DNA from: a virus
Lineage: Duplodnaviria > Heunggongvirae > Uroviricota > Caudoviricetes
Virus record (IMG/VR): IMGVR_UViG_3300044623_001231
Reading direction: 5' to 3' (one strand)
DNA length: 64,000 nucleotides
The notes below the pieces were generated by a model that worked only from the letters and a program-made list of their open reading frames with translations, was not told the DNA's origin and did not search any database. Position numbers and translations under genes: made by a program. Shown piece by piece: positions 1,943 to 15,152 of the stretch. Each line of letters begins with the position of its first letter. Within the stretch, counting starts at the first letter, position 1.

Positions 1943-2073
1943 TCTATTGGTTCTTTACATTGTGGACATACAGTTGGTGTTTTTGTATAGAATACGTTAC
2001 CGCATTTCTTACAAACTTTCATTTCATCATCACGCCATTCCAAATCTGGGTATCCTATATCTGAATTATTCAT
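1939..2073 (-). CDS. small zinc-ribbon protein (CxxC ... CxxC), 44 aa (or 27 aa from the internal ATG at 2022)
   Basis: read from the DNA: MNNSDIGYPDLEWRDDEMKVCKKCGNVFYTKTPTVCPQCKEPIE; stop overlaps the next start; below the 60-aa track cutoff. Confidence 0.45.
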   Translation of the reverse strand: MNNSDIGYPDLEWRDDEMKVCKKCGNVFYTKTPTVCPQCKEPIE

Positions 2074-3079
2074 TGTTAATAATATACTTTTTCACAAATT
2101 CAACCCCATTGTTGATTTGTAGTTCAAATTTATCCAATCTTACCTTCATTATATCCTTAGCTTTTGGTATCTCACCTTGCCTCATTTTCAAAGTTGCATC
2201 CTTTACCTTAGATAATCCATCCACATCAATCAGTTTTATATTCGATTGAGTTCCAATCAGCGGGTCCACATTTTGTGGTACTGATAAATCGATTATAACT
2301 TTGGTACCTTCCACATCATTAAAATTTATGATATGATAGTCCGCATTGGTTGCTACTATAATGATATCAGCCAATTTAATATACCTTTGGAGGCTTGAAT
2401 ATCTATCACTTTTTACATCCAATTGTTTTGCTATCTTATCTGATAACGATTCAGTTCGATTCAATAACGTAATTTCGTTGGTATCCAATTCCGTAATGAT
2501 ATTTCTCATTGTGGCTCTACCCATCTTACCAGCACCAATTACCAAAATCGTTTTGTTCTGAATATCGGTTACATTTTCCTTAATATATTCAACAGCTGCG
2601 TTTGATACTGATACTGAACCCTCTGATATTTTAGTTTCTGAACGTATTGTTTTAGCTATCGATTGTGCAAAGTTGGTTATCTTTTCAAAATACCCACCCA
2701 ACTTAGCTGAAATACCTGCCATTCTAAGTGCATCCTTAATCTGACCAGCCACTTCATAATCACCCAATAACTGAGAGTCCATTCCAGATGCAACTTCTAC
2801 TAAATGTTCAAAACATTCCCTATCATTAATGTAATATGCTTCTCTTTTGAATAGTTCCATATCACCATCACCTACCAAAAGTTTCAAAAGTTCATCCTCT
2901 GGTTGGTCAAATGAATAGATTTCAGTTCTATTACAAGTTGAAATGATAAAAAAATGAAATAATCCGCTATTAGAATACCTTTCTAAAATAGCAGATTCAG
3001 TTAGTGCAAATTTACTTCTTACAGATAACTCAGTTTTTTTATAACTAATACCAACACAATTTAGTGGTTTAAATATCAT
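2066..3079 (-). CDS. hemA: glutamyl-tRNA reductase (HemA/GluTR) homolog
   Basis: STCNRTEIY active-site Cys motif; NADPH Rossmann VIGAGKMG; 337 aa. Confidence 0.7.
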   Translation of the reverse strand: MIFKPLNCVGISYKKTELSVRSKFALTESAILERYSNSGLFHFFIISTCNRTEIYSFDQPEDELLKLLVGDGDMELFKREAYYINDRECFEHLVEVASGMDSQLLGDYEVAGQIKDALRMAGISAKLGGYFEKITNFAQSIAKTIRSETKISEGSVSVSNAAVEYIKENVTDIQNKTILVIGAGKMGRATMRNIITELDTNEITLLNRTESLSDKIAKQLDVKSDRYSSLQRYIKLADIIIVATNADYHIINFNDVEGTKVIIDLSVPQNVDPLIGTQSNIKLIDVDGLSKVKDATLKMRQGEIPKAKDIMKVRLDKFELQINNGVEFVKKYIINNE

Positions 3080-3315
3080 TCTTCATTAAGGTATTTGATA
3101 AGATTAATAATTGTAATTGTGAAAAAAACCGGCCATACAATAACCATCAAAGCTCTTTCAAAATTATTAAATTGTAATTCATCATCACCTCCTCTTGATA
3201 GGAGCCAATCATAAAACATAGTAAATCCAAATCCTAAAACTAAATATATTAAAATTTCTTGTCCATATTGTAACATCATAACTAATACTTTTTTGTTAAA
3301 TTTTCCACATCCCAC
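3076..3315 (-). CDS. small membrane protein
   Basis: hydrophobic 79-aa ORF, 4-nt overlap. Confidence 0.45.
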   Translation of the reverse strand: MGCGKFNKKVLVMMLQYGQEILIYLVLGFGFTMFYDWLLSRGGDDELQFNNFERALMVIVWPVFFTITIINLIKYLNEE

Positions 3316-3473
3316 ATTTGTTGTGAGATTTCAATTTTTCTTTCTAATTGTATAATAGCTTCTTTTTGAGCTTGAATATACTCCTGCATTAAATAAATTT
3401 GGTGTTTTAATCTACCATTTTCTTCATCCAATTCCCGTTTATCTTTGAAGTATTTTTTAATTTTTTCTATCAT
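3282..3473 (-). CDS. hypothetical coiled-coil protein
   Basis: ORF track. Confidence 0.35.
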   Translation of the reverse strand: MIEKIKKYFKDKRELDEENGRLKHQIYLMQEYIQAQKEAIIQLERKIEISQQMWDVENLTKKY

Positions 3474-4547
3474 TTATAGTAAGTGAGGTTTGCCTTCAGT
3501 TAATCCGGCGTTAGTTACTTGAACCCATTTTGGGCTGAATTCAGATATTGAATTTGCACCACCATAAGATAGTGCCGATTTTACTCCATCCAATAATCCA
3601 TTTATTACATATTTTACTCCACCTTTATAAGGTATAATAGTTGATTCACCTTCTACGTTTCTAGCTGCCTGTCCATGTGATACCTTAGTTTCTAATGATG
3701 CTGAACCTCTATAACGTTTATACAATCCGTTTCCTTTTTCAATAATTTGACCGGGTGATTCATCAGTTCCAGCAATTAGTGAACCAATCATAACACAATC
3801 TGCTCCAACCGCTAACGCTTTAGCAATATCACCACTTCCTCTAATTCCACCATCAGCCATAATTGGTACATTTGATATCGTAGCGATATCCTCAATACAA
3901 CTTACATTTGGTACACCAAACCCAGTTTTGATTCGAGTAGTACAAAGTGAACCTCCACCAATTCCAACTCTCAATCCATCTGCCCCAGCTGATTCTAATG
4001 CTACAGCTGCCTCAGCAGTTGCGATATTACCCGCAATGATATCCACCTTTTCAAATAGTGGATTTTGTTTACACCATACAATCATATCGATTACATTTTG
4101 GTGATGTCCATGCGCTACATCGATAACCAAAATATTGGCACCAGCTTCTACCAATTTAGTAGCTCTTACCTTATCTTCTCCCTGAACACCAATTGCAGCC
4201 ATAATTGGAATTTGTTTAATTTCAGCATGCCAATCATCATACATAATTCCCCAATCTTCATATGGACCACCAAACCCATCACCATAGATTTTATAGCTTA
4301 ACATTTTAATTTGTTTAGCTTGCTCTTCAATTGACATAAATCGGTGAATACATCCAACACCTCCCATTAGAAACATTTTGAATGCCATATCTAATTCACA
4401 CACCGTATCCATTGGGGATGCTACTAATGGATTCATTAATCCATATCGTCTACTTACCAATGTATTTAGATTAATGTTTTGGCGGGAGTTTACGTTTGAA
4501 TACGCTGGTACCAATTGGATATCATCGTATGTAAGTGATTGTTTCAT
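3474..4547 (-). CDS. guaC: GMP reductase (IMPDH/GMPR family, no CBS insert)
   Basis: GSLCTTRIKTGFGVP catalytic-Cys loop; MADGGIR; 357 aa aligns with GuaC. Confidence 0.8.
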   Translation of the reverse strand: MKQSLTYDDIQLVPAYSNVNSRQNINLNTLVSRRYGLMNPLVASPMDTVCELDMAFKMFLMGGVGCIHRFMSIEEQAKQIKMLSYKIYGDGFGGPYEDWGIMYDDWHAEIKQIPIMAAIGVQGEDKVRATKLVEAGANILVIDVAHGHHQNVIDMIVWCKQNPLFEKVDIIAGNIATAEAAVALESAGADGLRVGIGGGSLCTTRIKTGFGVPNVSCIEDIATISNVPIMADGGIRGSGDIAKALAVGADCVMIGSLIAGTDESPGQIIEKGNGLYKRYRGSASLETKVSHGQAARNVEGESTIIPYKGGVKYVINGLLDGVKSALSYGGANSISEFSPKWVQVTNAGLTEGKPHLL

Positions 4548-4562
4548 GTAACTTTTTGGTTT

Positions 4563-4772
4563 TTATTTTGTTTGATAAACTAAGGTATCCAATTCAGTAA
4601 TAGGAGCGTTCATAAGTTTTCTATAAACTCTACATCCAAATTTCTTACGGGTTGATGCAGATTCACTATCCGCATATCGTTGTGCTATAAATTGAGAATC
4701 ACAAACTGCTACTAAGTAACAACGTCCGTTTAAATCACCACCCTCATATGCTAATATTACAAATGTTTCCAT
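4563..4772 (-). CDS. hypothetical protein
   Basis: ORF with a short-leader promoter (TTCGTATATTTGTATAAATAAAATAAGTT-ATG) directly upstream. Confidence 0.5.
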   Translation of the reverse strand: METFVILAYEGGDLNGRCYLVAVCDSQFIAQRYADSESASTRKKFGCRVYRKLMNAPITELDTLVYQTK

Positions 4773-4814
4773 AACTTATTTTATTTATACAAATATACGA
4801 AAAATTATCGATAT
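4773..4814 (-). promoter_or_regulatory. Bacteroidetes-type -7 element (TATATTTG) with a leader of about 12 nt; short-leader promoter class
   Basis: motif ataacttattttatttatacaaatatacgaa recurs at 29265, 29916 and 32794. Confidence 0.55.
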
Positions 4815-6527
4815 CTACAAGCTTTTCGATAAAATTTCTTCAACAATTTGAATATCTTCGGGATAATCAACTGCATGGGATTGGTTATCTAACATAACCA
4901 TTTTAATTTTATGCCCCATCTCTAAAAATCTAATGATTTCAATATCCTCATCATATTCTAATGGAGTTTTTTTACCAAAACTACTAAATTCTTTAAGGTG
5001 CTCTCTATTAAATGCGTATATACATACCTGCTTTTTGGGATGGTTACCATTACCTGTTTTGGTTCCGGGTATTGGATTCCTAGACATATAGATTAACTCA
5101 TCATTTAAATTGGTAATTACTTTTGGTATTTTCTTATCCTCTACATTTTCATGTTTGTTTAAATAAGACATACAATTTACAATATGGTTTGGATATTTCA
5201 ACTTAGCTTGAATTACCTTATCAATATCAGTTGGGTCCAATAATGGTTCATCACCTTGGATATTTATAATAATATCAGCATCAATTTCCATTGTTGCTTC
5301 AGCAACTCTATCAGTTCCAGTTAAACAAGAATCTGAAGTTAATATTACATTATATCCATAGCTGTTAACTAAATCTACAATTTCTTCATTTTCAGTTGCT
5401 ATATACACATTTTCAATTCCAACTGAATTCTTAGCTATTTCAGCAACCCAAATAATCATTTCTTTATTTTGGATTTTTGCTAATGGTTTTCCTGGGAATC
5501 TTGAAGATTTGTATCTTGCTGGAATAACAACTGCTATTTTTGGTTTTAATGTTTTTTCAATCTTTGAATAATCGTAAGTTTCTGAATTTTCAATATCCAA
5601 TAAAATATTCTCTATTCTATTTGGATTTAAAAATGAAGATTGTAATGTTTGTGGATATAATGGATGAATGTGCTTCATTCCACTTATCATATAATTGTGA
5701 GTAAATCCCCAATTGTGAGTTATATGTAATGGAATCATCCAATCCGTTAAAACTTTATGAAGTGGTGATGAATTATATAATTTGAATTTGTATTGCAAAT
5801 ATGTAACTAATTGTTCGGTCTTTACGTTTCCAACACCCCTACCCATTCCTAATAATGTACCATCCAACCACACTACACCTTCCTCTAAAGCAGATATACA
5901 ATTAGCGAATGCTAATCCAATGTTATCATGTGTATGAATACCAATATCACATCCAAATTCTTTAAAAATTTTAACAATTTCTTTTACTTTACTTGGTTCA
6001 ACATTACCATATGAATCAGCAAAATATAATGCTATTGGATTAACATTTACTAATTTACTAAAATCTCGCATTTCATCATCCGATAACATAGAAATACTCA
6101 TCAAATTTATCATCAAATCATATCCTTTATTTTTTATATGATTTGCAATTCCAATTGAGTGGGTTATTTCAGAATGTTTTATTGCCAATCTACAAATTGA
6201 AAATGGTGAATCGGATTTTTGATGAATAATATTATCAATCAATGCAAAATCAATAGAATCTCCTTTAATAAAATCTTTAGCATCAATCATAAATGCTAAT
6301 TTAGAATTTAGTGGTAATCTATATTCTAATATTTCCCAAATAAATCTATCATTACATTTTCTAAATTGCCCACCTTTTAGTGGTGATTTATAACCAATCT
6401 CAATAACATCCACACCAGACGTATCCAATGAAAATACTAAATCTTTAACCATTTTTGGTTCAAAATTCCAATTGGTATAGTATCCACCATCTCTTAAAGT
6501 ACAATCTAAAATTTTAACCTTTTTCAT
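4815..6527 (-). CDS. bifunctional DRE-TIM (HMGL-like) aldolase / CMP-Kdo-type cytidylyltransferase
   Basis: N-terminal KILDCTLRDGG and GIHTHDN (His-x-His); C-terminal IAVVIPARYKSSRFPGKPL (KdsB/NeuA signature). Confidence 0.7.
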   Translation of the reverse strand: MKKVKILDCTLRDGGYYTNWNFEPKMVKDLVFSLDTSGVDVIEIGYKSPLKGGQFRKCNDRFIWEILEYRLPLNSKLAFMIDAKDFIKGDSIDFALIDNIIHQKSDSPFSICRLAIKHSEITHSIGIANHIKNKGYDLMINLMSISMLSDDEMRDFSKLVNVNPIALYFADSYGNVEPSKVKEIVKIFKEFGCDIGIHTHDNIGLAFANCISALEEGVVWLDGTLLGMGRGVGNVKTEQLVTYLQYKFKLYNSSPLHKVLTDWMIPLHITHNWGFTHNYMISGMKHIHPLYPQTLQSSFLNPNRIENILLDIENSETYDYSKIEKTLKPKIAVVIPARYKSSRFPGKPLAKIQNKEMIIWVAEIAKNSVGIENVYIATENEEIVDLVNSYGYNVILTSDSCLTGTDRVAEATMEIDADIIINIQGDEPLLDPTDIDKVIQAKLKYPNHIVNCMSYLNKHENVEDKKIPKVITNLNDELIYMSRNPIPGTKTGNGNHPKKQVCIYAFNREHLKEFSSFGKKTPLEYDEDIEIIRFLEMGHKIKMVMLDNQSHAVDYPEDIQIVEEILSKSL

Positions 6528-6531
6528 AAAT

Positions 6532-6915
6532 TTATTTTATATACTTTATGTGTTCTAATGTATCTGTCCAATTTTTAAAAGTAAATCCTTTATCATCCAC
6601 ATAAACAAATGCGTTTGGTTTACCCCAAACTACATCCGAAATGTATTGTTTAAAATTATAAGATTCCAACCAATCCCAAATTAACTCAGTTCCTGTTTTA
6701 TCATTAATCAATGGTCTGTTTGGGTTTGATTTGCAACTGAATATTACTATTTTATAATTATCACTTAGATACTTCAACGCAGTTTCAGTTCCTTCCATTG
6801 GTTCACCATATATAGTACCATCAAAAAATCCTTTAGAATCATTATGAATTACTCCATCAAAATCTAATGCAACTACCTTTTTAGATTTTTCCAAAAACTC
6901 AGCAAAATCTCCCAT
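6532..6915 (-). CDS. HAD-superfamily phosphatase (KdsC/GmhB-like)
   Basis: motif I ALDFDGVI; 127 aa. Confidence 0.6.
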   Translation of the reverse strand: MGDFAEFLEKSKKVVALDFDGVIHNDSKGFFDGTIYGEPMEGTETALKYLSDNYKIVIFSCKSNPNRPLINDKTGTELIWDWLESYNFKQYISDVVWGKPNAFVYVDDKGFTFKNWTDTLEHIKYIK

Positions 6916-7509
6916 TTATATTAAAGTTATGTTTGAAATATTTTTAAGTATATTAAACTCATAATTAATATTATGAGCCGGTCCAACTATACCCGCTTTC
7001 TTAGCTTCTGCAACTTCATCATATGTGGGGTCATAATAGTGACCTGTTTTATTTCCATCAAACCCAATCAAATGAACATTTTTATTAAAAAATAAAGATA
7101 AATTTAATGCTAATGAGGTTCCAGATGTTAACCTAGCAGTTGATTCATTCATATATGGATGCGAAACATTTAATAATCGAGTGTTGGGTTGTATATGTAA
7201 AATTTCTCTTTTACTGTTACCACGTATTTCCGATGTAGTAAATAACTGAGTTTTGTTTACATATTTTTCAAAATTAGGTAGCATGTATTTTGTATGTGGT
7301 AATGTAAAATCACTACAATGGAAAGATATTGCTGATACTTTTGTTCCAACATCACCCTCATACCCTTCTATTTGAAAATCATTAAACCTAATTACACATT
7401 CATACGAATCTATAAATTCCCCTTGATTATCCATTTTACCATTACCAACTAATAGTACAGTATCTGGAAAACTTTTAAATAAAGATTGTACCGAATCGTA
7501 TTTTTGCAT
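6916..7509 (-). CDS. putative sialyltransferase-like glycosyltransferase (GT29 L-motif-like)
   Basis: LLVGNGKMDNQGEFIDSYECVIRFND resembles sialyl-motif L CAVVGNSG...DFVLRMN. Confidence 0.45.
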   Translation of the reverse strand: MQKYDSVQSLFKSFPDTVLLVGNGKMDNQGEFIDSYECVIRFNDFQIEGYEGDVGTKVSAISFHCSDFTLPHTKYMLPNFEKYVNKTQLFTTSEIRGNSKREILHIQPNTRLLNVSHPYMNESTARLTSGTSLALNLSLFFNKNVHLIGFDGNKTGHYYDPTYDEVAEAKKAGIVGPAHNINYEFNILKNISNITLI

Positions 7510-7517
7510 ATCCGATA

Positions 7518-7925
7518 TTATTTAAACCATCCGATTTTCTTTCCTTCTTTTTTACGTCTATCGTATTCCTCAACTGAACCCGGATATCTAAATGCCCATA
7601 CCCCAATCAATATGAATGTAAATGCTGCATATCCAACAATTCTAAGTGGAACTGTAAAGTACATTGATATAAGTGAAATACTCATTACAATTACCATCAT
7701 AATTCTACCTTTGTTTGGATACACCCTTTTGGTTTCCCAATTGGTTAGGTATTTTCCAAAGATTTTGTGTTCATGCAACCACTTATCCAATTCAGGAGAT
7801 GATTTTGAGAATGCCCAAGCGGCCAAAAGTGCGAAGAAAGTTGTAGGTACACCCGGAGTAATCACTCCAATGTATGCACAACCTACGAATAAAAGCCCCA
7901 AGGCTCTCCATAACCATTTTTTCAT
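7518..7925 (-). CDS. DUF454/YbaN-family inner-membrane protein
   Basis: MKKWLWRALGLLFVGCAYIGVITPGVPTTFFALLAAWAFSKSSP matches the YbaN N-terminus. Confidence 0.55.
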   Translation of the reverse strand: MKKWLWRALGLLFVGCAYIGVITPGVPTTFFALLAAWAFSKSSPELDKWLHEHKIFGKYLTNWETKRVYPNKGRIMMVIVMSISLISMYFTVPLRIVGYAAFTFILIGVWAFRYPGSVEEYDRRKKEGKKIGWFK

Positions 7926-7930
7926 ATAAA

Positions 7931-8113
7931 TTATCGTTTAAGTATAAGTACTAATGCTAAAATAAATAGAACTATTCCAATTGGTATCCAAAGAGGAGCA
8001 GTTACCCACCACCAAGACCAATCAATATAGTTTGTTAATTTTAAAGTCATAAAGATTAGGAATAATATCATACCCAATCCGATTCCGTTGCTGTTATTAT
8101 TTGAATTTGCCAT
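7931..8113 (-). CDS. small membrane protein (possible holin/spanin-class)
   Basis: 60 aa, two hydrophobic segments, adjacent to the endolysin. Confidence 0.4.
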   Translation of the reverse strand: MANSNNNSNGIGLGMILFLIFMTLKLTNYIDWSWWWVTAPLWIPIGIVLFILALVLILKR

Positions 8114-8114
8114 T

Positions 8115-8681
8115 TTAATTAAAATATTGTTTTAAATTATTAGTTTCGATAGTTTTCTTTAATACTTCAACATATCTTTTATCCGAAGCGTAACTATTAG
8201 AAAGGTATTGGTAGTATTCTGCTTCAGTATTTATTGTTGCCAAATACCTACATTGGTAAAATGCGTAATCATAAACTGATTCTCGCCAACTTTGATAAAA
8301 TGCGTGATTGTTCTGAGTTCCACCAGCAGTAGTTACTCTCTGCTTAGCTTCTTTCATTCCAAATAGGTTATGGTTTTCTTTGAAAATATTACTTTTCCAC
8401 TTACCAGTTTCAATCATAGACTGAGCCATTACAATATGTGGAAACTTAACGTTTAATTCCTTTAAAAGTTCAACCAATTTATCTTCACTAAATTTATTTT
8501 GCTCAGCGGTCATATTCAATACAATCAATTCCTTTTCATAATTTTCCAATGATTGAATTTTAGCATACCTACCAATTGTAAATGAAATAGCTACTAAACT
8601 AATACAAGTTAGTATAACCATTTTAACTGTTTTCAAATCTTTTTTGAATACTAAGTTTGTTCTATCGTACTTATAAATCAT
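8115..8681 (-). CDS. endolysin, glucosaminidase (FlgJ-type) domain with N-terminal signal anchor
   Basis: AQSMIETGKWKS...NLFGMK glucosaminidase motif; N-terminal TM segment. Confidence 0.65.
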   Translation of the reverse strand: MIYKYDRTNLVFKKDLKTVKMVILTCISLVAISFTIGRYAKIQSLENYEKELIVLNMTAEQNKFSEDKLVELLKELNVKFPHIVMAQSMIETGKWKSNIFKENHNLFGMKEAKQRVTTAGGTQNNHAFYQSWRESVYDYAFYQCRYLATINTEAEYYQYLSNSYASDKRYVEVLKKTIETNNLKQYFN

Positions 8682-8684
8682 AAT

Positions 8685-8936
8685 TTATTTTTTTAATTTA
8701 CCATTAATGTACTGAGTTCTTAATGATTTAGCCTCAATGTATTGAGTTCGTAATTCGTTAAGAACTTCAGCTTGAATTTCATCATAATAACCTTTAGTTT
8801 CAATATCGGTTATCATTTCCCTTACCGTTTGAACTGTACTTGTCCAATCTTCCATTTGTTCATCACGCAACCATTCATCCAAATCAAATAAGAATTTAGA
8901 TTGCTTTCTATCTAAAAAAATGGTTTTTTTACTCAT
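8685..8936 (-). CDS. hypothetical protein
   Basis: ORF track. Confidence 0.45.
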   Translation of the reverse strand: MSKKTIFLDRKQSKFLFDLDEWLRDEQMEDWTSTVQTVREMITDIETKGYYDEIQAEVLNELRTQYIEAKSLRTQYINGKLKK

Positions 8937-9034
8937 TAATTTTTAATAATTCACATAACTTATTATAGGTTGCCTGCCCAGATGAACTCAACCTATCATA
9001 ATCCCATCCCAACTCTTCAATTAAATCTTTAATA

Positions 9035-9328
9035 TCAGCTAACATAACATAACTTATTTGCTATTAGTAAAATCGTTTCCTCATCTTCTTTAGTAAGTCT
9101 CCAACTATTACCTAATAGTTTAGATACAGCTTCATCAAATGCATCACCATCGATTGAATTATTTGTTTCCGATAACCCTTTTGGAGTGAACCCCTCACTA
9201 TAAAGTTCATCTACCAACTCCATTGCTTCAGCCAATTTTAATTTCTCAGCTTCTAATTTGTTTTTTTCATTTTCCCAAAACTTTTGTTTTTCTTCTTGGG
9301 ATAGAGTTTTCCATTCTTCTAATTTCAT
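9035..9328 (-). CDS. hypothetical acidic protein
   Basis: ORF track. Confidence 0.45.
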   Translation of the reverse strand: MKLEEWKTLSQEEKQKFWENEKNKLEAEKLKLAEAMELVDELYSEGFTPKGLSETNNSIDGDAFDEAVSKLLGNSWRLTKEDEETILLIANKLCYVS

Positions 9329-9345
9329 AATTTATATTTTAAAGG

Positions 9346-9804
9346 TTACCAACTTGCGTTATATTCAAAATCATCCGCTATCTCATCAGTCAAAATATCT
9401 TCTAAATACACAATAGTATTTAAGATACTCTTAAAGTACCATTCATCATATTCAGTTCCACCAAAGAAAAATCCACTAGATGATGGTAGTAATGTACTAG
9501 CTAAATCATTATCAGCTTCAACTTGTTTACATACATCCAATAACTCTTCTAATTTTTCTCTGCTTACATAAGAAGATTGACACTCATCAATTCCATTCTG
9601 AACATTCTGAACGAACCAATTGTGGATTTGATTTGCCTTTCGCCAATATGCAACCTCTTCAACAATAAACTTAACACGCTCCGGCTTGATTCTTTCATCA
9701 ACTTTACCACCGGTTTTAACTTCCACATCCATACGGTGTTCTGGTTTGTAATAATCACCACTACGAACATAACTCTTTTTGTACAAATAACTGTCTAGTC
9801 CCAT
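9346..9804 (-). CDS. hypothetical protein
   Basis: ORF track. Confidence 0.5.
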   Translation of the reverse strand: MGLDSYLYKKSYVRSGDYYKPEHRMDVEVKTGGKVDERIKPERVKFIVEEVAYWRKANQIHNWFVQNVQNGIDECQSSYVSREKLEELLDVCKQVEADNDLASTLLPSSSGFFFGGTEYDEWYFKSILNTIVYLEDILTDEIADDFEYNASW

Positions 9805-9810
9805 AACTTT

Positions 9811-10008
9811 TTATTTTAATGCGTTTAATAATTTTTTATAATCTATACCAATAACACCCAACAGACCCATAGTTCCGGCCATAACTGCAACTGCCATCTC
9901 ATTTAAAGGTCCTGCAAAGTGGATGTAGTTCTGAATTGTTCCGTTCATTATACCATAGAAGATATAAAATGAACATACTGCGATTAAAATTGCTTGATAA
10001 TTTTTCAT
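9811..10008 (-). CDS. small membrane protein
   Basis: 65 aa hydrophobic; full promoter cassette upstream. Confidence 0.5.
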   Translation of the reverse strand: MKNYQAILIAVCSFYIFYGIMNGTIQNYIHFAGPLNEMAVAVMAGTMGLLGVIGIDYKKLLNALK

Positions 10009-10100
10009 ATTTTAGGGTTTTAATTAATTACTCTCTTAATTACTTGTCTAATATACAACAAATATTCGATATAAACAAGCTTTTTTGTCATTATTTTGTA
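10009..10100 (-). promoter_or_regulatory. full promoter-leader cassette (TTG...TAnnTTTG plus conserved 5'UTR ...TAAGAGATAATTAAACCCTAAAA)
   Basis: one of at least 11 near-identical roughly 90-110-bp cassettes. Confidence 0.6.
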
Positions 10101-10465
10101 ATTAAACTCACTTTAATATCTTCAAGTAAGTCCAATTGGTTACGAAATACATCCTTTTCGAATGCCTCTCTATCAATATCCATAGATTCCTGTACCCTAT
10201 TTATTAGAATAGTACTAAAATTGGATGAAATTGAACGTTCAAATGAGAATTTGTGGTTAGTAATAGCTATGTAAAAATCATTAATAACTATATAGTATTC
10301 CATTCGTCTATTACTAACATAGTACTTACCAACGGTAGGTGCCATCATAAAATCGGTATCTTCTTGCTCACACATTAGGTTTACAATATCCGAAAGTAAT
10401 TGTTCGGTTTCACCTAATTTATAAGGTGGTTTAATAATATTTTTTATTTTGGTTATAATATTCAT
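10091..10465 (-). CDS. hypothetical protein
   Basis: ORF track. Confidence 0.5.
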   Translation of the reverse strand: MNIITKIKNIIKPPYKLGETEQLLSDIVNLMCEQEDTDFMMAPTVGKYYVSNRRMEYYIVINDFYIAITNHKFSFERSISSNFSTILINRVQESMDIDREAFEKDVFRNQLDLLEDIKVSLITK

Positions 10466-10477
10466 AGGGATTTTGGT

Positions 10478-10735
10478 TTAAATGTAACAATTTACATTGG
10501 TTAATGCTAATAATTTAATGACTCTAAGGTTATCCATATCAGCCCTACTAACTGCCTCAACCAATTTGTTATCACAAACTGCTTCAACAAATCCTCCACC
10601 ACTCATAACACCATCTCTATGCATCATAATGGAAACCATTATATCCACATTGTGGTTTGAAACCTCAACTTGCCAGTCTTTAGCGAACTGAATAGCTGCA
10701 TTTTTGTACTTTTCTCTTAATTCTAAATAATCCAT
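10478..10735 (-). CDS. hypothetical protein
   Basis: ORF track; cassette upstream. Confidence 0.5.
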   Translation of the reverse strand: MDYLELREKYKNAAIQFAKDWQVEVSNHNVDIMVSIMMHRDGVMSGGGFVEAVCDNKLVEAVSRADMDNLRVIKLLALTNVNCYI

Positions 10736-10821
10736 TTTTTTACGTTTTAGGGGTTTAATTATTAATTCTCAATCTTTATATTCAAATATACGAAATCTTC
10801 CTGATATAACCAAGCTTTTGG
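10736..10821 (-). promoter_or_regulatory. full promoter-leader cassette
   Basis: ttttaggggtttaatt ... caaatatacgaa ... gatataaccaagctttt. Confidence 0.6.
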
Positions 10822-11613
10822 TTAATTATTTTCATACACACTAAATGGTGAATTCATTGGGATAATGAACTTATTGTTGGAAGTGTCAATTTTGTTTCTA
10901 ACTTTTTTGAATTTCAATCCAACTATAACGTTTTGCTCATCCAAATATCTCATATCATATGCATCACCATCAATTACATCATATCCACTCCATTTAGTTG
11001 GTAATTGTTTACCTTCAAATACCATAGCTACCCTACCTTTACCTTCCCTTAGTAGATTTACACAATCAATCATATTATACCCTGAAAATGAGTAGGTTAA
11101 ATCGTAATTAGAGTACTTTTCTAGCAATCTAAATCGTTTTGATACCTTTGTGTAATCATAGAAAGAAACATCAGGAAACCACTCCAAAATGTTCTTATTA
11201 TCCAATTTAAAGGTAGTTGGGTCTAAATCTGAGGTTCCATTCAATCTAACTGAGAATCGTAATCCACTACGTTCAGCTTTCTCTTTTTCTTTACCAATTT
11301 CATAGATTAACCAACCCATAAAAAATTCCCTGTCCTCAAAGAATAGTTTTGTTTTTTTGATGCGGGCCTGATTAATTTGGTTCTTATGGATATCGATTTT
11401 ATTCCTACCAGACTCATTCAAACAAGCAGCGGTACATTCATCCGTTCTCATTGGACAAACCTCATATCCACTTGACTTAGCGGGTGCTAAGTATATAATG
11501 TAGGTTGATTCATTATACTTTAATCCTTTAGCCATCTTAGAAGATGAATTAACACTACCAAGATAACTTAATCCGGTTAGTTTCTTTGCTTGAGATAAAT
11601 TTTGAAATTTCAT
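10822..11613 (-). CDS. hypothetical protein (263 aa)
   Basis: ORF track. Confidence 0.55.
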   Translation of the reverse strand: MKFQNLSQAKKLTGLSYLGSVNSSSKMAKGLKYNESTYIIYLAPAKSSGYEVCPMRTDECTAACLNESGRNKIDIHKNQINQARIKKTKLFFEDREFFMGWLIYEIGKEKEKAERSGLRFSVRLNGTSDLDPTTFKLDNKNILEWFPDVSFYDYTKVSKRFRLLEKYSNYDLTYSFSGYNMIDCVNLLREGKGRVAMVFEGKQLPTKWSGYDVIDGDAYDMRYLDEQNVIVGLKFKKVRNKIDTSNNKFIIPMNSPFSVYENN

Positions 11614-11641
11614 TTACTATTAATTTTAGGGGTTTAATTGA

Positions 11642-11857
11642 TTATCTATATAATGTTACAATACTACCGAAGTAACTATCAAATACCTCAAGTAGGTTTT
11701 CATAATCACCACTCCTCATTTCAGAACAAATTTCTTCAGAATTCATTCCTAATTGTTTTGCCAGATTTGATGCGGTTCCCAATAAGTAAAAAGCGTTACC
11801 CTGTGGACCGGTTAAATCAATTGTAATTCCTGTTTGTTTTGGTTTTTCTAAAATCAT
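11642..11857 (-). CDS. hypothetical protein
   Basis: ORF track. Confidence 0.4.
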   Translation of the reverse strand: MILEKPKQTGITIDLTGPQGNAFYLLGTASNLAKQLGMNSEEICSEMRSGDYENLLEVFDSYFGSIVTLYR

Positions 11858-11877
11858 AACTTTATTTTTTTTAATTA

Positions 11878-12222
11878 TTAAATACCTTGCTCTCTGCGTA
11901 AATCATACTCTTCCTTTTCAGCTTCCGAATACTCAACAACCTTTAAGTAAGGTTGAAAATCAGTTTCGTAATAACCTCGAAATCCAGCGAAGAATAACAT
12001 CTCATCGATGAACAATTTTCGAACGTAAGTCATATCGGATGAACCAAATCCCTGGTCTTCCGGCCAATCGGAATATTCATTGGCAACTATCTCCAATGAA
12101 TTAAAAACAGCATCAGCATAAGTGAATCCGTTTTTAGAAGGGAATCCTTTTCTGATAACATCGTAACCTTCTACTAATGAAGAGGTTTCGTGAACAAAAG
12201 CTAAATTAAATGGTAAACTCAT
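11878..12222 (-). CDS. hypothetical protein
   Basis: ORF track; cassette upstream. Confidence 0.5.
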   Translation of the reverse strand: MSLPFNLAFVHETSSLVEGYDVIRKGFPSKNGFTYADAVFNSLEIVANEYSDWPEDQGFGSSDMTYVRKLFIDEMLFFAGFRGYYETDFQPYLKVVEYSEAEKEEYDLRREQGI

Positions 12223-13131: not shown

Positions 13132-13701
13132 TTATTTATTTAAAAATCCTATTACTTTTTCTTTAATCCCACTTTGTTTGATACCTTCATTACTTCTAGC
13201 AGTTAGTACAAAGTTATCAAGTCCATGTCCTTGATTGTATTCCGGACTCATATTAAGGTCATCTATTGCAACCCATGTTTCAATTTCAGAATTTAATTCC
13301 AAATACTTTTCAATCTCCAATATTCTTTTTTTACTATACCAACCCTTCCAACTGAAAAGTGCATCGGATTCTGAATCCCAATCACCTAAATTTGGTGTGA
13401 ATGCTAACGGTCTTTTACTAATACCTTGCTCAATATAGTAATCACCCAACTCTTCTAATGTAGCATGTAATTTCCAATCCGAACTAACAATTATTTCAGC
13501 ACCAGTTTCCTCAAGTACTTCATTCAATACCTTAATAGCTTTTTCATCGAAATTATCCAACCTTACATTCACCGGGGCTTCTTTTTGAATTAAAGATGAG
13601 TTTGGATTATCCGAACGATACTTACTCCATTTCTTACTTCTACCTCCCCAATTGTTAGAGAGGCAAATTACACCATCATTATCTAAAAATATAACTTTCA
13701 T
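13132..13701 (-). CDS. HAD-superfamily phosphatase (polynucleotide 3'-phosphatase or GmhB-like)
   Basis: motif I MKVIFLDNDGVI; late AIDDL motif. Confidence 0.55.
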   Translation of the reverse strand: MKVIFLDNDGVICLSNNWGGRSKKWSKYRSDNPNSSLIQKEAPVNVRLDNFDEKAIKVLNEVLEETGAEIIVSSDWKLHATLEELGDYYIEQGISKRPLAFTPNLGDWDSESDALFSWKGWYSKKRILEIEKYLELNSEIETWVAIDDLNMSPEYNQGHGLDNFVLTARSNEGIKQSGIKEKVIGFLNK

Positions 13702-14186
13702 TATTTCATTTTTTTAATACTATCCAACAATTCGGGATATTCCAATAGTAATTTTGGATTATTTTTCAAAGTTTGAATTGTAATATCATTCTTTAACTTA
13801 GTAGTACTCCAACCATGTGCTCTTGATGTGAATATAACTTTAGGTGTTAAGTTATCACCGGTAAATCGTTTACCAATATAATCCTCACCCAATATTCTAA
13901 CATCAGGTTTAAAAAACTCAATTAATTGTATAAGCTCTTCTTCAGTTTGATAAGTATAAACCGCATCAACTGATTCTAATTCCATTAAAGTATTATATCT
14001 TTCAGCACGAGGTACAACGGGTGTATATTTATTAGCCCTATCAATAGATGGGTCATTTTGTAGAAACACCATAAAGTAATCACAATGCTTTTTTGCAGTT
14101 TGAAAGGTGTAAACGTAACCTGGATGAATGATATCGAAGTTACCTGCGGTAAATCCTACTATCTTTTGTTCTCCGTTTATAATCAT
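13701..14186 (-). CDS. HIGH-motif nucleotidyltransferase (RfaE domain II / cytidylyltransferase-like)
   Basis: GFTAGNFDIIHPGYV (GxFDxxHxGH). Confidence 0.6.
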   Translation of the reverse strand: MIINGEQKIVGFTAGNFDIIHPGYVYTFQTAKKHCDYFMVFLQNDPSIDRANKYTPVVPRAERYNTLMELESVDAVYTYQTEEELIQLIEFFKPDVRILGEDYIGKRFTGDNLTPKVIFTSRAHGWSTTKLKNDITIQTLKNNPKLLLEYPELLDSIKKMK

Positions 14187-14187
14187 T

Positions 14188-14337
14188 TTATTCTTTGTTT
14201 ATAATCTCCCACTTAAAAGGAGGTCTATTTCTTTGATACTCACGCATTGACCAATCAATATCATCAGTTTTTAATGTTATTAATTCTGGTTGTGGGTTGT
14301 TATAATCCAACCAAGTGATTTTAATAATGTAATTCAT
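14188..14337 (-). CDS. small protein (49 aa)
   Basis: read from the DNA: MNYIIKITWLDYNNPQPELITLKTDDIDWSMREYQRNRPPFKWEIINKE; stop 1 nt before the next ATG. Confidence 0.4.
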   Translation of the reverse strand: MNYIIKITWLDYNNPQPELITLKTDDIDWSMREYQRNRPPFKWEIINKE

Positions 14338-14482
14338 ACTTTAAAATTTACCCCATTGGGATTTATGTCTATTTTCTTCAGCTATCTTAAAACCCAACCA
14401 AATATCCTTAAAGAATGATTTGATATTATTAATTATTTTGTTCATATTACAAATATACTAATTATTTTTTAATTATCCAAAT

Positions 14483-14827
14483 TTATTTCCAAAATATCTG
14501 TATTCCTATTAATATTGCTGCTAAAATCAATGATATACCTGTTTTTGCATTAATACCCTCATTCATAAATATAAATGTGAGAATAGCAAACGTAATCATC
14601 CCACCAGCTTGCCCTATAAATCTTCCCGGCCATAATTGCCCATCAAAGTGTTCAGCAACCAAAGAAGTTCCTTTAATAAAAATGTAAGATATTAAGGTCC
14701 CACCCATTAGAGATATTAAGAATGGATTACGTTTGAACCAAGGCCAAACGAATTGCCCATTGGTTTGTATCCAAATTATACATTGGGCTATTGTAAATAA
14801 TATAACTCCCCAAATTAGGTTTTTCAT
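14483..14827 (-). CDS. membrane protein (4 TM)
   Basis: ORF track, hydrophobic. Confidence 0.5.
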   Translation of the reverse strand: MKNLIWGVILFTIAQCIIWIQTNGQFVWPWFKRNPFLISLMGGTLISYIFIKGTSLVAEHFDGQLWPGRFIGQAGGMITFAILTFIFMNEGINAKTGISLILAAILIGIQIFWK

Positions 14828-14836
14828 ACAATCATT

Positions 14837-15148: not shown

Positions 15149-15152
15149 GCTT

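What the first reader, a model, noticed from the sequence alone, without database searches (positions are those of the whole stretch)
4815..7509. Ulosonic-acid (Kdo/sialic-like) activation and transfer module
A single 570-aa protein fuses a DRE-TIM pyruvate-aldolase-type domain (DCTLRDGG, H-x-H) to a KdsB/NeuA-type CMP-sugar synthetase (IPARYKSSRFPGKPL). It is followed by a HAD phosphatase and by a protein with a eukaryote-type sialyl-motif L (VGNG...C-V-R-N). Together they could synthesize, CMP-activate and transfer a 3-deoxy-2-ulosonic acid. Such a pathway could sialylate or Kdo-modify the virion or the host surface, for immune or adsorption masking or superinfection exclusion. The aldolase-cytidylyltransferase fusion itself is unusual.
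Basis: partly seen in the sequence, partly recalled or inferred. Interest (0 to 1): 0.7.

Follow-up and report, generated by a model that had tools for sequence, protein, structure and literature searches.

The report
Phage cassette for sialic-like sugar capping
A large marine phage carries three tightly packed genes that look able to build an acidic, sialic-acid-like sugar from pyruvate, activate it with CMP and attach it to a target; the first step uses an aldolase instead of the usual synthase, and related phages swap in other, unrelated aldolases at the same spot.

Summary
Window 4815-7509 (minus strand) holds three abutting genes. They encode a 197-aa minimal GT29 sialyltransferase homologue, a 127-aa HAD-type phosphatase, and a 570-aa fusion of a DmpG-like DRE-TIM pyruvate aldolase domain to a KdsB-like CMP-sugar synthetase. 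Profile searches and structure prediction support every domain call.

The strongest evidence is comparative. In three separate syntenic contexts, related phages keep the GT29 gene and its flanks. They replace the neighbouring cassette with HpcH-type aldolase + HAD + PseF-like cytidylyltransferase, or with a cytidylyltransferase::RraA-like aldolase fusion. More distant phages pair GT29-like genes with NeuB/NeuA. So a pyruvate-aldolase activity appears to be what the slot requires.

Cellular genomes carry the same aldolase next to a separate KdsB-like gene, and in 10 of 18 loci a HAD, in polysaccharide loci. These include Gram-positive lineages.

The aldolase-linked synthetases keep the catalytic residues I checked against KpsU but differ from canonical KdsB at clade-specific positions in the sugar-binding domain. 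The sugar may therefore not be Kdo itself.

The product, the acceptor and the biological role are not established. I found no published description of this route. I rate it a new variant of a known kind.

The parts
6916..7509 (-). Minimal (197 aa) cytoplasmic GT29-family sialyltransferase homologue; the presumed CMP-ulosonic-acid transferase.
   Evidence: PF00777 at 50.4 bits against a cut-off of 23. Invariant G22 N23 (motif L), R41 F42 N43 (motif L), G149 F150 (motif S), H157 in HYYD (motif III) and H179-x4-E184 (motif VS) across 51 homologues. AF2 mean pLDDT 93. The 23 best Foldseek PDB hits are all GT29 enzymes, followed by GT42 CstII. On reading the sequence I see no long hydrophobic N-terminal stretch, and the family has no conserved Cys pair.
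6532..6915 (-). Small cap-less HAD-superfamily phosphatase (127 aa).
   Evidence: Invariant D18-x-D20, K99 and D107-D108 in 13 homologues. Profile search of the PDB finds 1XPJ (E 0.0024) and GmhB heptose-bisphosphate phosphatase (E 0.0028). PHROG 1238, E 2.5e-13. A homologue lies on the same strand within about 4 kb of the fusion in 26 of 29 phage loci; many of these loci are near-duplicates. It is 77% identical in the variant-B cassette of L031.
5553..6527 (-). N-terminal domain of the fusion (aa 1-325): DRE-TIM class II pyruvate aldolase of the DmpG/BphI type, including the helical C-terminal subdomain.
   Evidence: PF00682, E 4e-27. NCBIfam 4-hydroxy-2-oxovalerate aldolase models are the best hits but fall below their cut-offs. 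PDB 3DXI E 2e-41 and DmpG 1NVM E 1e-16. Foldseek target TM-score 0.83 to 3DXI and 0.72-0.78 to DmpG-type aldolases. R12, D13, H198 and H200 are invariant and align with the RD and H-x-H motifs of DmpG, which I recall to be the catalytic Arg and the metal ligands. The position of DmpG His21 is an invariant Tyr16.
4815..5543 (-). C-terminal domain of the fusion (aa 329-570, plus the stop codon): KdsB-like CMP-3-deoxy-ulosonate synthetase of a distinct aldolase-linked clade.
   Evidence: PF02348, E 3e-45. NCBIfam PRK13368 at 282 bits against a cut-off of 255; the kdsB equivalog models fall below their cut-offs. KpsU 1GQ9 E 3e-36. Foldseek target TM-score 0.88-0.91. The equivalents of KpsU R10, K19, Q96, D98 and D225 are kept, but H172 becomes Q, G174 becomes C and Q202 becomes I. 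These changes are shared with the cellular aldolase-linked genes and not with 62 canonical KdsB.
7518..7925 (-). DUF454/YbaN-like small inner-membrane protein immediately upstream (8-nt gap). Membership in the module is uncertain.
   Evidence: PF04304, E 3.5e-30. It is adjacent to GT29 in the window and in L031/L032 (86% aa identity) but 3 kb away in L033. It may instead belong with the neighbouring glucosaminidase and two-TM small protein, which look like a lysis cassette.

Best explanation
The three genes form a self-contained 'make, activate, transfer' cassette for an acidic 3-deoxy-2-ulosonic sugar. The sugar would be Kdo-like but is probably not Kdo itself.

Proposed steps (all inferred unless marked otherwise):
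1. The DRE-TIM domain condenses pyruvate with an aldose or aldose phosphate taken from host metabolism.
2. The HAD phosphatase removes the phosphate, either from the sugar substrate or from the condensation product.
3. The fused KdsB-like domain traps the free ulosonate by making its CMP ester with CTP. Fusing the two domains would pull the reversible aldol reaction forward.
4. The soluble minimal GT29 enzyme transfers the sugar from CMP to a cytoplasmic acceptor.

I think the acceptor is most likely a glycan or protein of the phage particle, or failing that a host envelope glycoconjugate precursor. The sugar would act as a terminal acidic cap.

What the tools show: the domain identities, the conservation of key residues, the tight gene packing, and the interchangeability of the cassette with other pyruvate-aldolase/cytidylyltransferase cassettes. 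What is inferred: the chemistry, the substrate, the order of steps and the acceptor.
For: 1. Domain identities come from independent profile, sequence-to-PDB and fold searches.

2. Non-homologous replacement occurs in place. Each pair below keeps its flanks:
- Window against L031: glucosaminidase, DUF454, GT29, HAD and IMPDH at 56-86% aa identity.
- L126 against L028: RNaseH-like, GT29 and SET.
- L124 against L125: flanks at 70-94% identity.
The cassette next to GT29 is in turn HAD + HMGL::KdsB, or HpcH aldolase + HAD + PseF-like cytidylyltransferase, or PseF-like cytidylyltransferase::RraA-like aldolase. These are three unrelated class II pyruvate-aldolase folds. This points to aldolase activity as the required function.

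3. More distant phage GT29-like genes sit beside NeuB- and NeuA-like genes. Other fusion loci carry MptE/Maf-like or KpsS-like genes instead of GT29. Maf enzymes use CMP-Kdo and CMP-Neu5Ac (abstract of PMC11339370).

4. The 64-kb window has no KdsA or NeuB homologue.

5. In cellular genomes the same aldolase lies beside a separate KdsB-like gene. The triad aldolase, KdsB-like, HAD appears in 10 of 18 loci, within polysaccharide loci. These include Ruminococcus and Acutalibacteraceae. As Gram-positive lineages these would lack a Kdo/LPS pathway (my background knowledge, not checked in these genomes).

6. Residues that align with the catalytic residues of DmpG and KpsU are invariant across 46 fusion homologues at 54-90% identity.

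7. Multidomain relatives of the mini-GT29 are fused to other glycosyltransferase and methyltransferase domains.
Against: - No enzyme activity, product or acceptor is known for any member.
- The aldolase domain scores below the cut-offs of the DmpG equivalog models and has Tyr where DmpG has its catalytic His21.
- The HpcH call in variant B is weak (29.2 bits against a cut-off of 25; PDB E 0.012).
- The HAD assignment is weak at the sequence level, and no HAD homologue was found next to variant C.
- The window holds no other recognisable glycosyltransferase near the cassette, so the acceptor glycan is unidentified.
- Only 64 kb of a genome of probably 160-180 kb is visible. A KdsA or NeuB elsewhere cannot be excluded.
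- Many of the compared loci are close relatives, so the counts overstate independence.
Confidence: 0.6

Rival explanations
1. The cassette makes authentic CMP-Kdo and acts on the host envelope. It would boost or rewire host LPS or capsule Kdo addition during infection, for example for superinfection exclusion or envelope maintenance, as has been proposed for the kdsA/kdsB genes of cyanophages.
For: The C-terminal domain passes a KdsB subfamily model and is closest to the capsule CMP-Kdo synthetase KpsU. The residues equivalent to Q98 and Y185 of E. coli KdsB, which bind the C5-OH of Kdo (PMC12199768), are kept as Q424 and Y504 (the mapping between the two numbering schemes is my own and was not checked by alignment). 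A KpsS/KpsC-like gene occurs in one related locus. kdsA and kdsB occur in cyanophage S-SCSM2R and are interpreted there as cell-wall modification genes (PMC12801897).
Against: The aldolase-linked clade differs from 62 canonical KdsB at conserved positions of the Kdo-binding domain: H172Q, G174C, Q202I, T124N, V140P and A150L (the domain assignment is from PMC3149649). The equivalog kdsB models are not met. Variants B and C use PseF/NeuA-like rather than KdsB-like cytidylyltransferases with the same GT29. The aldolase plus KdsB-like pair also occurs in Gram-positive genomes. No known Kdo transferase family (GT30 WaaA) was seen among the window ORFs that were scanned.
Confidence: 0.2
2. The transferase modifies phage DNA (or RNA) rather than a glycan or protein. 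This would be a hypermodification that protects the genome from host nucleases.
For: The GT29 homologue appears soluble and cytoplasmic. Phage glycosyltransferases that decorate DNA with diverse glycans are known (Pyle et al. 2024, cited in PMC12619734). The window encodes a thymidylate-synthase-family protein with an insertion of about 100 aa, and a DNA methyltransferase.
Against: I know of no DNA glycosyltransferase that belongs to GT29 or uses a CMP-sugar. Relatives of the mini-GT29 are fused to GT2, GT92 and DXD glycosyltransferases, which are typical of glycan assembly. The cassette sits among polysaccharide-type genes in related phages and in cellular genomes. I found no evidence that the ThyA-like protein is a hydroxymethylase, but this was not tested.
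Confidence: 0.06
3. The N-terminal DRE-TIM domain is not a sugar-forming aldolase. It would be a Claisen-type condensing enzyme or an oxaloacetate decarboxylase. The CMP-linked product would then be a non-carbohydrate 2-oxo or hydroxy acid, comparable to nucleotide-activated phosphonate tailoring.
For: The DRE-TIM superfamily includes isopropylmalate, homocitrate and citramalate synthases and carboxyltransferases, and these also hit the domain (E 1e-12 to 1e-19). RraA-like and HpcH-like enzymes also have oxaloacetate decarboxylase activity (names of the NCBIfam hits). The catalytic His of DmpG is replaced by Tyr.
Against: The best sequence and fold matches are consistently the DmpG/BphI aldolases and 3DXI. 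Pyruvate-aldol chemistry is the activity I would expect the HMGL-like, HpcH and RraA-like folds to share (my knowledge of these families). NeuB, a sugar-acid synthase, fills the same role in more distant cassettes. The downstream enzymes are a KdsB-type sugar cytidylyltransferase and a sialyltransferase homologue, and both need a cyclic 2-ulosonic acid.
Confidence: 0.08

Closest known systems
Kdo pathway (KdsD, KdsA, KdsC, KdsB) with Kdo transferases, including the phage kdsA/kdsB pair of Synechococcus phage S-SCSM2R
   Same: A 3-deoxy-2-ulosonic acid is formed by adding a C3 unit to an aldose phosphate. A HAD phosphatase is involved, CMP activation is by a KdsB-fold enzyme, and the sugar is then transferred. 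Phages are known to carry parts of the pathway (PMC12801897).
   Different: No KdsA (a PEP-dependent DAHP-synthase-fold enzyme) is present in the window. A class II pyruvate aldolase domain is fused to the synthetase instead. The HAD is not a detectable KdsC relative. The synthetase differs at sugar-pocket positions. The transferase is GT29-like rather than GT30 or GT107.
Nonulosonic-acid clusters (NeuB/PseI/LegI synthase, NeuA/PseF/LegF, and a sialyltransferase or Maf)
   Same: The three-step logic is the same. More distant phage GT29-like genes sit in exactly such clusters (L117, L120). The MptE/Maf-like genes that replace GT29 in some fusion loci belong to a family shown to use CMP-Kdo and CMP-Neu5Ac (abstract of PMC11339370).
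   Different: The carbon-carbon bond is formed by a pyruvate aldolase rather than a PEP-dependent NeuB. In variant A the synthetase is KdsB-like rather than NeuA-like.
DmpG/BphI 4-hydroxy-2-oxovalerate aldolases (DRE-TIM metallolyases)
   Same: The fold includes the C-terminal helical subdomain. The Arg-Asp motif and the two His metal ligands are conserved.
   Different: The catalytic His21 of DmpG is Tyr here. No partner acylating dehydrogenase lies adjacent. The context is biosynthetic rather than aromatic catabolism. The equivalog cut-offs are not met.
Cellular 'putative aldolase' family (BVU_2661, PDB 3DXI) in polysaccharide loci
   Same: This is the closest homologue of the N-terminal domain (E 2e-41). 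It lies next to a KdsB-like gene of the same signature clade, and a HAD follows in 10 of 18 loci.
   Different: The cellular proteins are about 510-560 aa. They carry a C-terminal MptE/CstII-like domain instead of the synthetase. The synthetase is a separate gene, the HAD is a different, larger subfamily, and no GT29 gene was detected in these loci.
GT29 sialyltransferases of eukaryotes and the bacterial GT29-like sequences reported in 2018 (PMC5811610)
   Same: Sialylmotifs L, S, III and VS are present, and the predicted fold is the modified GT-A fold.
   Different: The protein is only 197 aa. It shows no membrane anchor or stem on reading the sequence, has no conserved disulphide, and is probably cytoplasmic. 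It is phage-encoded; 'phage' does not occur in the main text of that paper. Its partners suggest a donor other than CMP-Neu5Ac.
One-pot three-enzyme chemoenzymatic sialylation (sialic acid aldolase, CMP-sialic acid synthetase, sialyltransferase); recalled from my own knowledge
   Same: The same three activities run in the same order. CTP-driven activation pulls the reversible aldolase reaction forward.
   Different: That system is a laboratory design using a class I aldolase (NanA) and unfused enzymes. Here the aldolase is a metal-dependent class II enzyme and is fused to the synthetase.

Membership tests
CAZy GT29 / Pfam PF00777 | Profile match above the curated threshold | tested here: met
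   50.4 bits against a cut-off of 23, E 2.6e-13, covering profile positions 60-268 of 272. The relatives also carry a precomputed PF00777 call.
CAZy GT29 / Pfam PF00777 | Sialylmotifs L, S, III and VS with their key residues (the catalytic His of VS and the His/Tyr of III) | tested here: met
   G22 N23, R41 F42 N43, G149 F150 and H157 (in HYYD) are invariant; H179 and E184 (the H-x4-E motif) are conserved in at least 90% of 51 sequences. The assignment of these residues to the motifs is from my knowledge of GT29.
CAZy GT29 / Pfam PF00777 | Modified GT-A (variant 2) fold | tested here: met
   AF2 mean pLDDT 93. The Foldseek top hits are ST6GALNAC2, ST3Gal-I, ST8SiaIII and ST6Gal1 (E 5e-7 to 1e-3, query TM-score 0.47-0.59), followed by CstII.
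CAZy GT29 / Pfam PF00777 | Type II membrane topology and the conserved L-S disulphide of eukaryotic members | tested here: not met
   On reading the sequence I see no hydrophobic N-terminal segment. The motif-L Cys is not conserved (consensus F) and motif S has no Cys.
CAZy GT29 / Pfam PF00777 | Transfer from a CMP-activated ulosonic acid | not testable with these tools
   Supported only by gene neighbourhood: cytidylyltransferases are adjacent in all four cassette types.
KdsB (CMP-Kdo synthetase) | Curated family models | tested here: inconclusive
   The subfamily models PRK13368 (282 against 255 bits) and PRK05450.1-5 (245 against 193) are met. The equivalog models TIGR00466 (133 against 155) and NF003948 (155 against 281) are not met.
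KdsB (CMP-Kdo synthetase) | Catalytic and nucleotide-binding residues (KpsU R10, K19, Q96, D98, D225) | tested here: met
   All are conserved in the window protein and in the 17 phage and 17 cellular aldolase-linked sequences. They are invariant in A2.
KdsB (CMP-Kdo synthetase) | Conserved residues of the Kdo-binding C-terminal domain | tested here: not met
   H172Q, G174C, Q202I, T124N, V140P, A150L and R162K relative to 62 canonical KdsB, each conserved at 85-95%. All lie in residues 100-210, the Kdo-binding domain (PMC3149649). The equivalents of Q98 and Y185 are kept.
DmpG/BphI-type class II pyruvate aldolase (DRE-TIM) | DRE-TIM fold, with the Arg-Asp motif and the two His metal ligands | tested here: met
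   PF00682, E 4e-27. R12, D13, H198 and H200 are invariant and align to the RD and H-x-H motifs of DmpG, which I number R17/D18 and H200/H202 from my knowledge of the enzyme. Target TM-score 0.72-0.78.
DmpG/BphI-type class II pyruvate aldolase (DRE-TIM) | Catalytic His (DmpG His21) and the equivalog model | tested here: not met
   The aligned residue is an invariant Tyr16. TIGR03217 scores 95.8 against a cut-off of 286.
HAD-superfamily phosphatase | The four HAD motifs (DxD, S/T, K, DD) | tested here: met
   D18-x-D20, K99 and D107-D108 are invariant in 13 sequences, and S/T is present at position 60.
HAD-superfamily phosphatase | Significant match to a curated HAD model | tested here: inconclusive
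   No Pfam hit. NCBIfam GmhB E 0.0011, far below its cut-off. Profile search of the PDB finds 1XPJ at 0.0024 and GmhB at 0.0028.
Canonical Kdo or NulO biosynthesis cluster | A PEP-dependent synthase (KdsA or NeuB) supplies the sugar | tested here: not met
   tblastn of a phage KdsA and two phage NeuB sequences against the whole window gave a best E of 0.88. The rest of the genome is not visible.

The most novel reading that the evidence does not exclude
A PEP-independent route to CMP-activated ulosonic acids exists, in which a class II pyruvate aldolase replaces KdsA or NeuB. The aldolase can be of the DRE-TIM, HpcH or RraA-like fold interchangeably. The route is widespread in bacterial polysaccharide loci. 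Large marine phages have compacted it into an aldolase::synthetase fusion that feeds a minimal cytoplasmic GT29 sialyltransferase. The product would be a not-yet-described acidic deoxy-sugar that caps phage or host glycoconjugates. These mini-GT29s would belong to the prokaryotic and viral pool from which the eukaryotic sialyltransferases derive.
Probability: 0.35. Interest if true: 0.8.

Novelty: new variant of a known kind. Interest (0 to 1): 0.62.

Why it matters
If the chemistry holds, it adds a third way of making sialic-acid-like sugars: a pyruvate aldolase pulled forward by a fused CMP synthetase. That is nature's version of the one-pot aldolase/synthetase/transferase scheme chemists use.

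It would assign a function to a structural-genomics orphan (3DXI/BVU_2661) and to a common gene pair in capsule and O-antigen loci across many phyla.

It would show that large marine phages decorate something with their own acidic sugar. This bears on adsorption, immunity and grazing, and on how virions or infected cells are recognised.

The 197-aa soluble GT29 core is also of practical interest, both as a minimal sialyltransferase scaffold and for the debate on the bacterial origin of eukaryotic GT29 enzymes.

Every step is directly testable in vitro with three small soluble proteins.

Tried and rejected
- **Cultured-phage relatives.** blastn found only short, weak hits. tblastn found only partial matches, to the KdsB half or the aldolase half alone. 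No annotated reference genome is available.
- **PHROGs.** No family matched the fusion or the GT29 protein.
- **Literature.** Five searches for an aldolase/cytidylyltransferase pathway or for a phage GT29 found nothing relevant. The one HMGL-like/cytidylyltransferase paper concerns phosphonate biosynthesis and was not read further.
- **Promoter and terminator scan of 3300-9400.** Counts equalled the shuffled expectation, so I make no operon-boundary claim.
- **Fusions in cellular genomes.** Matches in Firmicutes that looked like fusions turned out to be adjacent genes in the reverse order: KdsB-like first, then a 526-aa aldolase.
- **Possible second MptE-like gene.** A hit of the cellular X-domain at window 44519-44620 (E 0.002) falls in an 84-aa ORF and covers only a glycine-rich motif. 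I rejected it as chance.
- **DUF6734 protein at 1217-1942.** No PDB sequence relative was found, so it could not be tied to the cassette.
- **IMG/VR scan with the GT29 profile.** Only 8 loci were returned, so association statistics are limited.
- **Kdo-contacting residues.** I could not obtain the full list from the papers held. Only Q98 and Y185 were documented. The pocket argument therefore rests on the domain location of the changed residues.


Full report
**Setting**

The window looks like part of a large marine phage genome.
- Every substantial ORF is on the minus strand, and GC is about 30-33%.
- PHROG and Pfam calls include GroEL, DNA ligase, RNA ligase, thymidylate synthase and a DNA methyltransferase.
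- There is a block of 25 tRNA genes plus a tmRNA.
- Cultured phages give no close match.
- The proteins of interest have many relatives in Tara, JGI, ENA and Logan marine assemblies and in IMG/VR contigs of 160-180 kb.

**Observation**

All quoted motifs are present.

Pfam gives three calls, each well above its gathering score:
- HMGL-like (PF00682, E 4e-27) and CTP_transf_3 (PF02348, E 3e-45) in the 570-aa protein.
- Glyco_transf_29 (PF00777, E 2.6e-13) in the 197-aa protein.

In transcriptional order the transferase comes first and the fusion last.

**The fusion protein**

NCBIfam places residues 330-568 in a KdsB subfamily (PRK13368, 282 bits against a cut-off of 255). The two kdsB equivalog models are not reached.

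Residues 1-245 best match 4-hydroxy-2-oxovalerate aldolase models, below their cut-offs.

Against solved structures:
[quoted passage not shown] DmpG-type aldolases follow (1NVM, E 1e-16).
- The C-terminal half is closest to the capsule CMP-Kdo synthetase KpsU (1GQ9, E 3e-36).

An AlphaFold model built on 46 homologues has mean pLDDT 90.5. Foldseek returns KpsU/KdsB at target TM-score 0.88-0.91, 3DXI at 0.83 and DmpG/BphI-type aldolases at 0.72-0.78 over about 340 columns. The helical subdomain that follows the barrel is therefore included.

Across homologues of 54-90% identity, R12, D13, H198 and H200 are invariant, as are the nucleotidyltransferase residues. These four align with the RD and H-x-H motifs of DmpG, which I recall to be the catalytic Arg and the metal ligands. 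The one departure from DmpG is that its catalytic His21 aligns with an invariant Tyr16.

**The transferase**

In an alignment of 51 homologues, the residues that define the sialylmotifs are invariant or nearly so:
- G22-N23 and R41-F42-N43 (motif L)
- G149-F150 (end of motif S)
- H157 in H-Y-Y-D (motif III)
- H179-x4-E184 (motif VS)

The model has pLDDT 93. Its 23 best PDB matches are all animal GT29 enzymes; the Campylobacter GT42 sialyltransferase CstII first appears at rank 24.

The protein shows no membrane anchor on reading the sequence, and the disulphide cysteines of eukaryotic GT29 enzymes are not conserved. It is therefore a stripped-down, probably cytoplasmic GT29 core.

An exhaustive profile search of 1.84 billion cluster representatives found 2716 relatives at E<=1e-3 and 502 at E<=1e-10. 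Most are 170-220 aa. Longer relatives join the module to GT2, GT92, DXD-type glycosyltransferase and methyltransferase domains, as expected for glycan-building enzymes.

Bacterial GT29-like sequences were reported in 2018. The word 'phage' does not occur in the main text of that paper (PMC5811610).

**The small middle gene**

It has no Pfam hit. All four HAD motifs are invariant in 13 homologues. A profile of these homologues finds the small HAD-like protein 1XPJ and the heptose-bisphosphate phosphatase GmhB in the PDB, at E 0.002-0.003.

A homologue lies on the same strand within about 4 kb of the fusion gene in 26 of 29 phage loci. The three exceptions are loci that end soon after the fusion. 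Many of the loci are near-duplicates.

**Comparative evidence: the main result**

Relatives of the GT29 gene were traced to their contigs. In three separate syntenic frames the flanking genes are conserved while the cassette beside GT29 is exchanged.

| Pair | Conserved flanks (aa identity) | Cassette in first locus | Cassette in second locus |
|---|---|---|---|
| Window vs L031 | glucosaminidase 64%, DUF454 86%, GT29 56%, HAD 78%, IMPDH-like 78% | HAD + HMGL::KdsB | HpcH/HpaI-type aldolase + HAD + PseF-like cytidylyltransferase + methyltransferase |
| L126 vs L028 | RNaseH-like 71%, GT29 56%, SET 70% | HAD + HMGL::KdsB | PseF-like cytidylyltransferase fused to an RraA-like domain |
| L124 vs L125 (same sample) | flanks 70-94% | HpcH cassette | RraA-like fusion |

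The domain calls for the alternative cassettes are as follows:
- RraA-like: PF03737 at 96.8 bits. It matches the 4-carboxy-4-hydroxy-2-oxoadipate aldolase 3NOJ at E 1e-12, and I read an R-D-x2-D motif in the sequence.
- HpcH: weaker, PF03328 at 29.2 bits against a cut-off of 25. Its best PDB matches are HpaI, the 2-keto-3-deoxy-sugar aldolase YfaU, and GarL.

HMGL-like, HpcH and RraA-like are three unrelated folds. From my knowledge of these families, what they share is metal-dependent pyruvate aldol chemistry. Their interchange in one genomic slot, always with a cytidylyltransferase and beside the same GT29 gene, is the best available argument that the slot needs a pyruvate aldolase to make the sugar that is then CMP-activated.

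Further observations point the same way:
- More distant phage GT29-like genes lie beside NeuB- and NeuA-like genes, the classical PEP-dependent solution.
- In other phage loci the fusion and HAD are followed by an MptE/Maf-like gene or accompanied by a KpsS/KpsC-like gene rather than GT29. The abstract of PMC11339370 reports that a Maf enzyme can use Neu5Ac and Kdo as donor sugars. KpsS/KpsC are Kdo transferases (my knowledge).
- The 64-kb window contains no KdsA or NeuB homologue.

**Cellular counterparts**

A scan of one genome per prokaryotic species returned 80 loci. Eighteen of them carry both halves, and none of the 18 is a fusion.

- The aldolase is a protein of 510-563 aa. Its C-terminal part of about 200 aa is a separate domain.
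- That domain is remotely similar to MptE and to CstII (E about 0.002) and to the phage mini-GT29 profile (hhalign probability 85%).
- The KdsB-like gene is adjacent in 15 of the 18 loci, in either order; it lies 0.6-2.6 kb away in three and was not detected in one. A larger HAD of a different subfamily follows in 10 of the 18.
- The surroundings are polysaccharide loci with a flippase, a Wzy-like protein, GT2 and GT4 enzymes and sugar-nucleotide enzymes.
- The taxa span Bdellovibrionota, Gamma- and Betaproteobacteria, Pelagibacteraceae, Prochlorococcus, Bacteroidota, Verrucomicrobiota and Gram-positive Ruminococcus and Acutalibacteraceae. As Gram-positive lineages the last two would have no Kdo/LPS pathway to borrow from (my background knowledge, not checked in these genomes).

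The phage version therefore looks like a compaction of an uncharacterised cellular pathway. The aldolase has lost its transferase-like tail, is fused to the synthetase, and is paired with a separate mini-GT29.

**Which sugar?**

I aligned three sets of synthetase sequences with KpsU: 17 phage domains, 17 cellular aldolase-linked genes, and 62 canonical KdsB genes with no aldolase nearby.

- All three groups keep R10, K19, Q96, D98 and D225.
- Both aldolase-linked groups share H172Q, G174C, Q202I, T124N, V140P, A150L and R162K at positions that are 85-95% conserved in canonical KdsB.
- These positions lie in residues 100-210, the domain that binds Kdo (PMC3149649).
- The equivalents of the two residues documented to hold the C5 hydroxyl of Kdo (Q98 and Y185 of E. 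coli KdsB; PMC12199768) are retained. I mapped E. coli to KpsU numbering by inspection of the HVGIY motif, not by alignment.

My reading is a Kdo-like 3-deoxy-ulosonic acid that differs elsewhere on the ring or side chain. This is inference. Variants B and C use PseF-like synthetases only 24% identical to the KdsB-like domain, so different cassettes may make different sugars for related transferases.

**Proposed mechanism**

1. *Inferred.* The aldolase domain condenses pyruvate with a host aldose or aldose phosphate.
2. *Inferred.* The HAD removes a phosphate before or after this step. A HAD accompanies variants A and B and 10 of the 18 cellular loci, and a HAD-like DxD ORF follows NeuB in L117. 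This suggests a phosphorylated intermediate.
3. *Inferred.* The fused synthetase converts the ulosonate to its CMP ester. The fusion would help trap the product of a reversible aldol reaction.
4. *Inferred.* The mini-GT29 transfers the sugar in the cytoplasm.

The acceptor is unknown. Related phages embed the cassette among many glycosyltransferases, methyltransferases and sugar-nucleotide enzymes. No flippase or polymerase appears among the called genes. I therefore lean toward decoration of phage particle components, with host envelope precursors second and nucleic acid a distant third.

**Novelty**

The kind of system is known: synthase, CMP-synthetase and transferase for ulosonic acids. 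Phages with kdsA/kdsB have been described (PMC12801897). What I could not find described is:
- a pyruvate-aldolase first step,
- its fusion to the synthetase,
- the in-place exchange among three aldolase folds,
- a phage-encoded minimal GT29.

Five literature searches returned nothing on these points. Source annotations call the fusion simply 'CMP-KDO synthetase' and the transferase 'hypothetical protein'. I rate it a new variant of a known kind.

**Limits**
- There is no biochemical evidence for any member.
- The HpcH and HAD calls are weak.
- Only part of the phage genome is visible.
- Many compared loci are related to one another.
- The host is unknown. Hints point to marine Bacteroidota, but the window also carries bilin-pathway genes typical of cyanophages.

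Noticed in passing
window 22456-28616 (- strand): A dense block of 25 tRNA genes plus a phage-encoded tmRNA (26038-26405, tag peptide AVELSTMTFEDAMSFVGADYAVAA). GC rises to 0.36-0.40 across the block.
   Followed up: no
window 2066-3079, 39638-40279, 40267-40779, 56361-57569, 58022-60139, 60669-61355: A set of tetrapyrrole and bilin auxiliary genes: glutamyl-tRNA reductase (hemA, above the TIGR01035 cut-off), a ferredoxin-dependent bilin reductase, heme oxygenase, CpeT, a PHROG 'porphyrin biosynthesis' AAA+ ATPase, and a protein with a sub-threshold CobT_C/VWA hit. These are typical of cyanophages, yet other hints in the window and its relatives (hits to Bacteroides and Nonlabens phages, a CHU_C domain in L031) point elsewhere. 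The host is unresolved.
   Followed up: no
window 13132-19325: A cluster that looks like RNA repair or processing: HAD_SAK_2 (13132-13701), a cytidylyltransferase-like protein (13701-14186), a PolyA_pol/CCA-adding-like nucleotidyltransferase (16259-16996), a T4-type RNA ligase (17097-18242) and a metallophosphoesterase (18663-19325). It sits beside the tRNA block.
   Followed up: no
window 7518-8681: Immediately upstream of the cassette lie a glucosaminidase with an N-terminal hydrophobic segment (8115-8681), a 60-aa protein with two hydrophobic stretches (7931-8113) and the DUF454 membrane protein (7518-7925). Together they look like a lysis cassette. The glucosaminidase and DUF454 neighbours are conserved in L031/L032.
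   Followed up: partly
L035-L049, L056, L064, L066, L085, L107 (e.g. L036 8004-9605): The cellular homologues of the aldolase are proteins of about 530 aa with an extra C-terminal domain. That domain is remotely like MptE, CstII and the mini-GT29 (conserved G-x-G...GFDGY motif, no invariant His). So the first and possibly the last enzyme of the pathway may be fused in bacteria. PDB 3DXI covers only the N-terminal domain of such a protein.
   Followed up: partly
L039 and L043 (about 9600-12200): In two cellular loci the aldolase and the KdsB-like gene are separated by a 342-aa protein whose sequence shows ferredoxin-like Cys-x2-Cys-x2-Cys motifs, a 256-aa protein with a HAD-like DxD motif, and (in L043) a 258-aa protein that looks HpcH-like by eye. 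None of these three was profile-searched. This may be a more elaborate version of the pathway.
   Followed up: no
L125 4079-5558: Two tandem mini-GT29 paralogues, separated by a small cupin-like gene, precede the cytidylyltransferase::RraA-like fusion. The syntenic L124 has a single copy.
   Followed up: no
window 42157-43260: A thymidylate-synthase-family protein of 367 aa spans the 266-position Pfam model end to end. It therefore carries an insertion of about 100 aa. I did not test whether it is a true ThyA or a pyrimidine hydroxymethylase.
   Followed up: no
L028/L029/L126 flanks: Relatives carry S-adenosylmethionine-related genes next to the cassette slot: AdoMet decarboxylase, S-AdoMet lyase and a SET-domain methyltransferase.
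   Followed up: no
window 3474-4547: An IMPDH/GMP-reductase-family protein of 357 aa lies 0.3 kb downstream of the cassette. All NCBIfam equivalog hits are below their cut-offs, and the alignments suggest the region where a CBS subdomain would sit is missing. It is conserved at 78% identity in the same position in L031.
   Followed up: no
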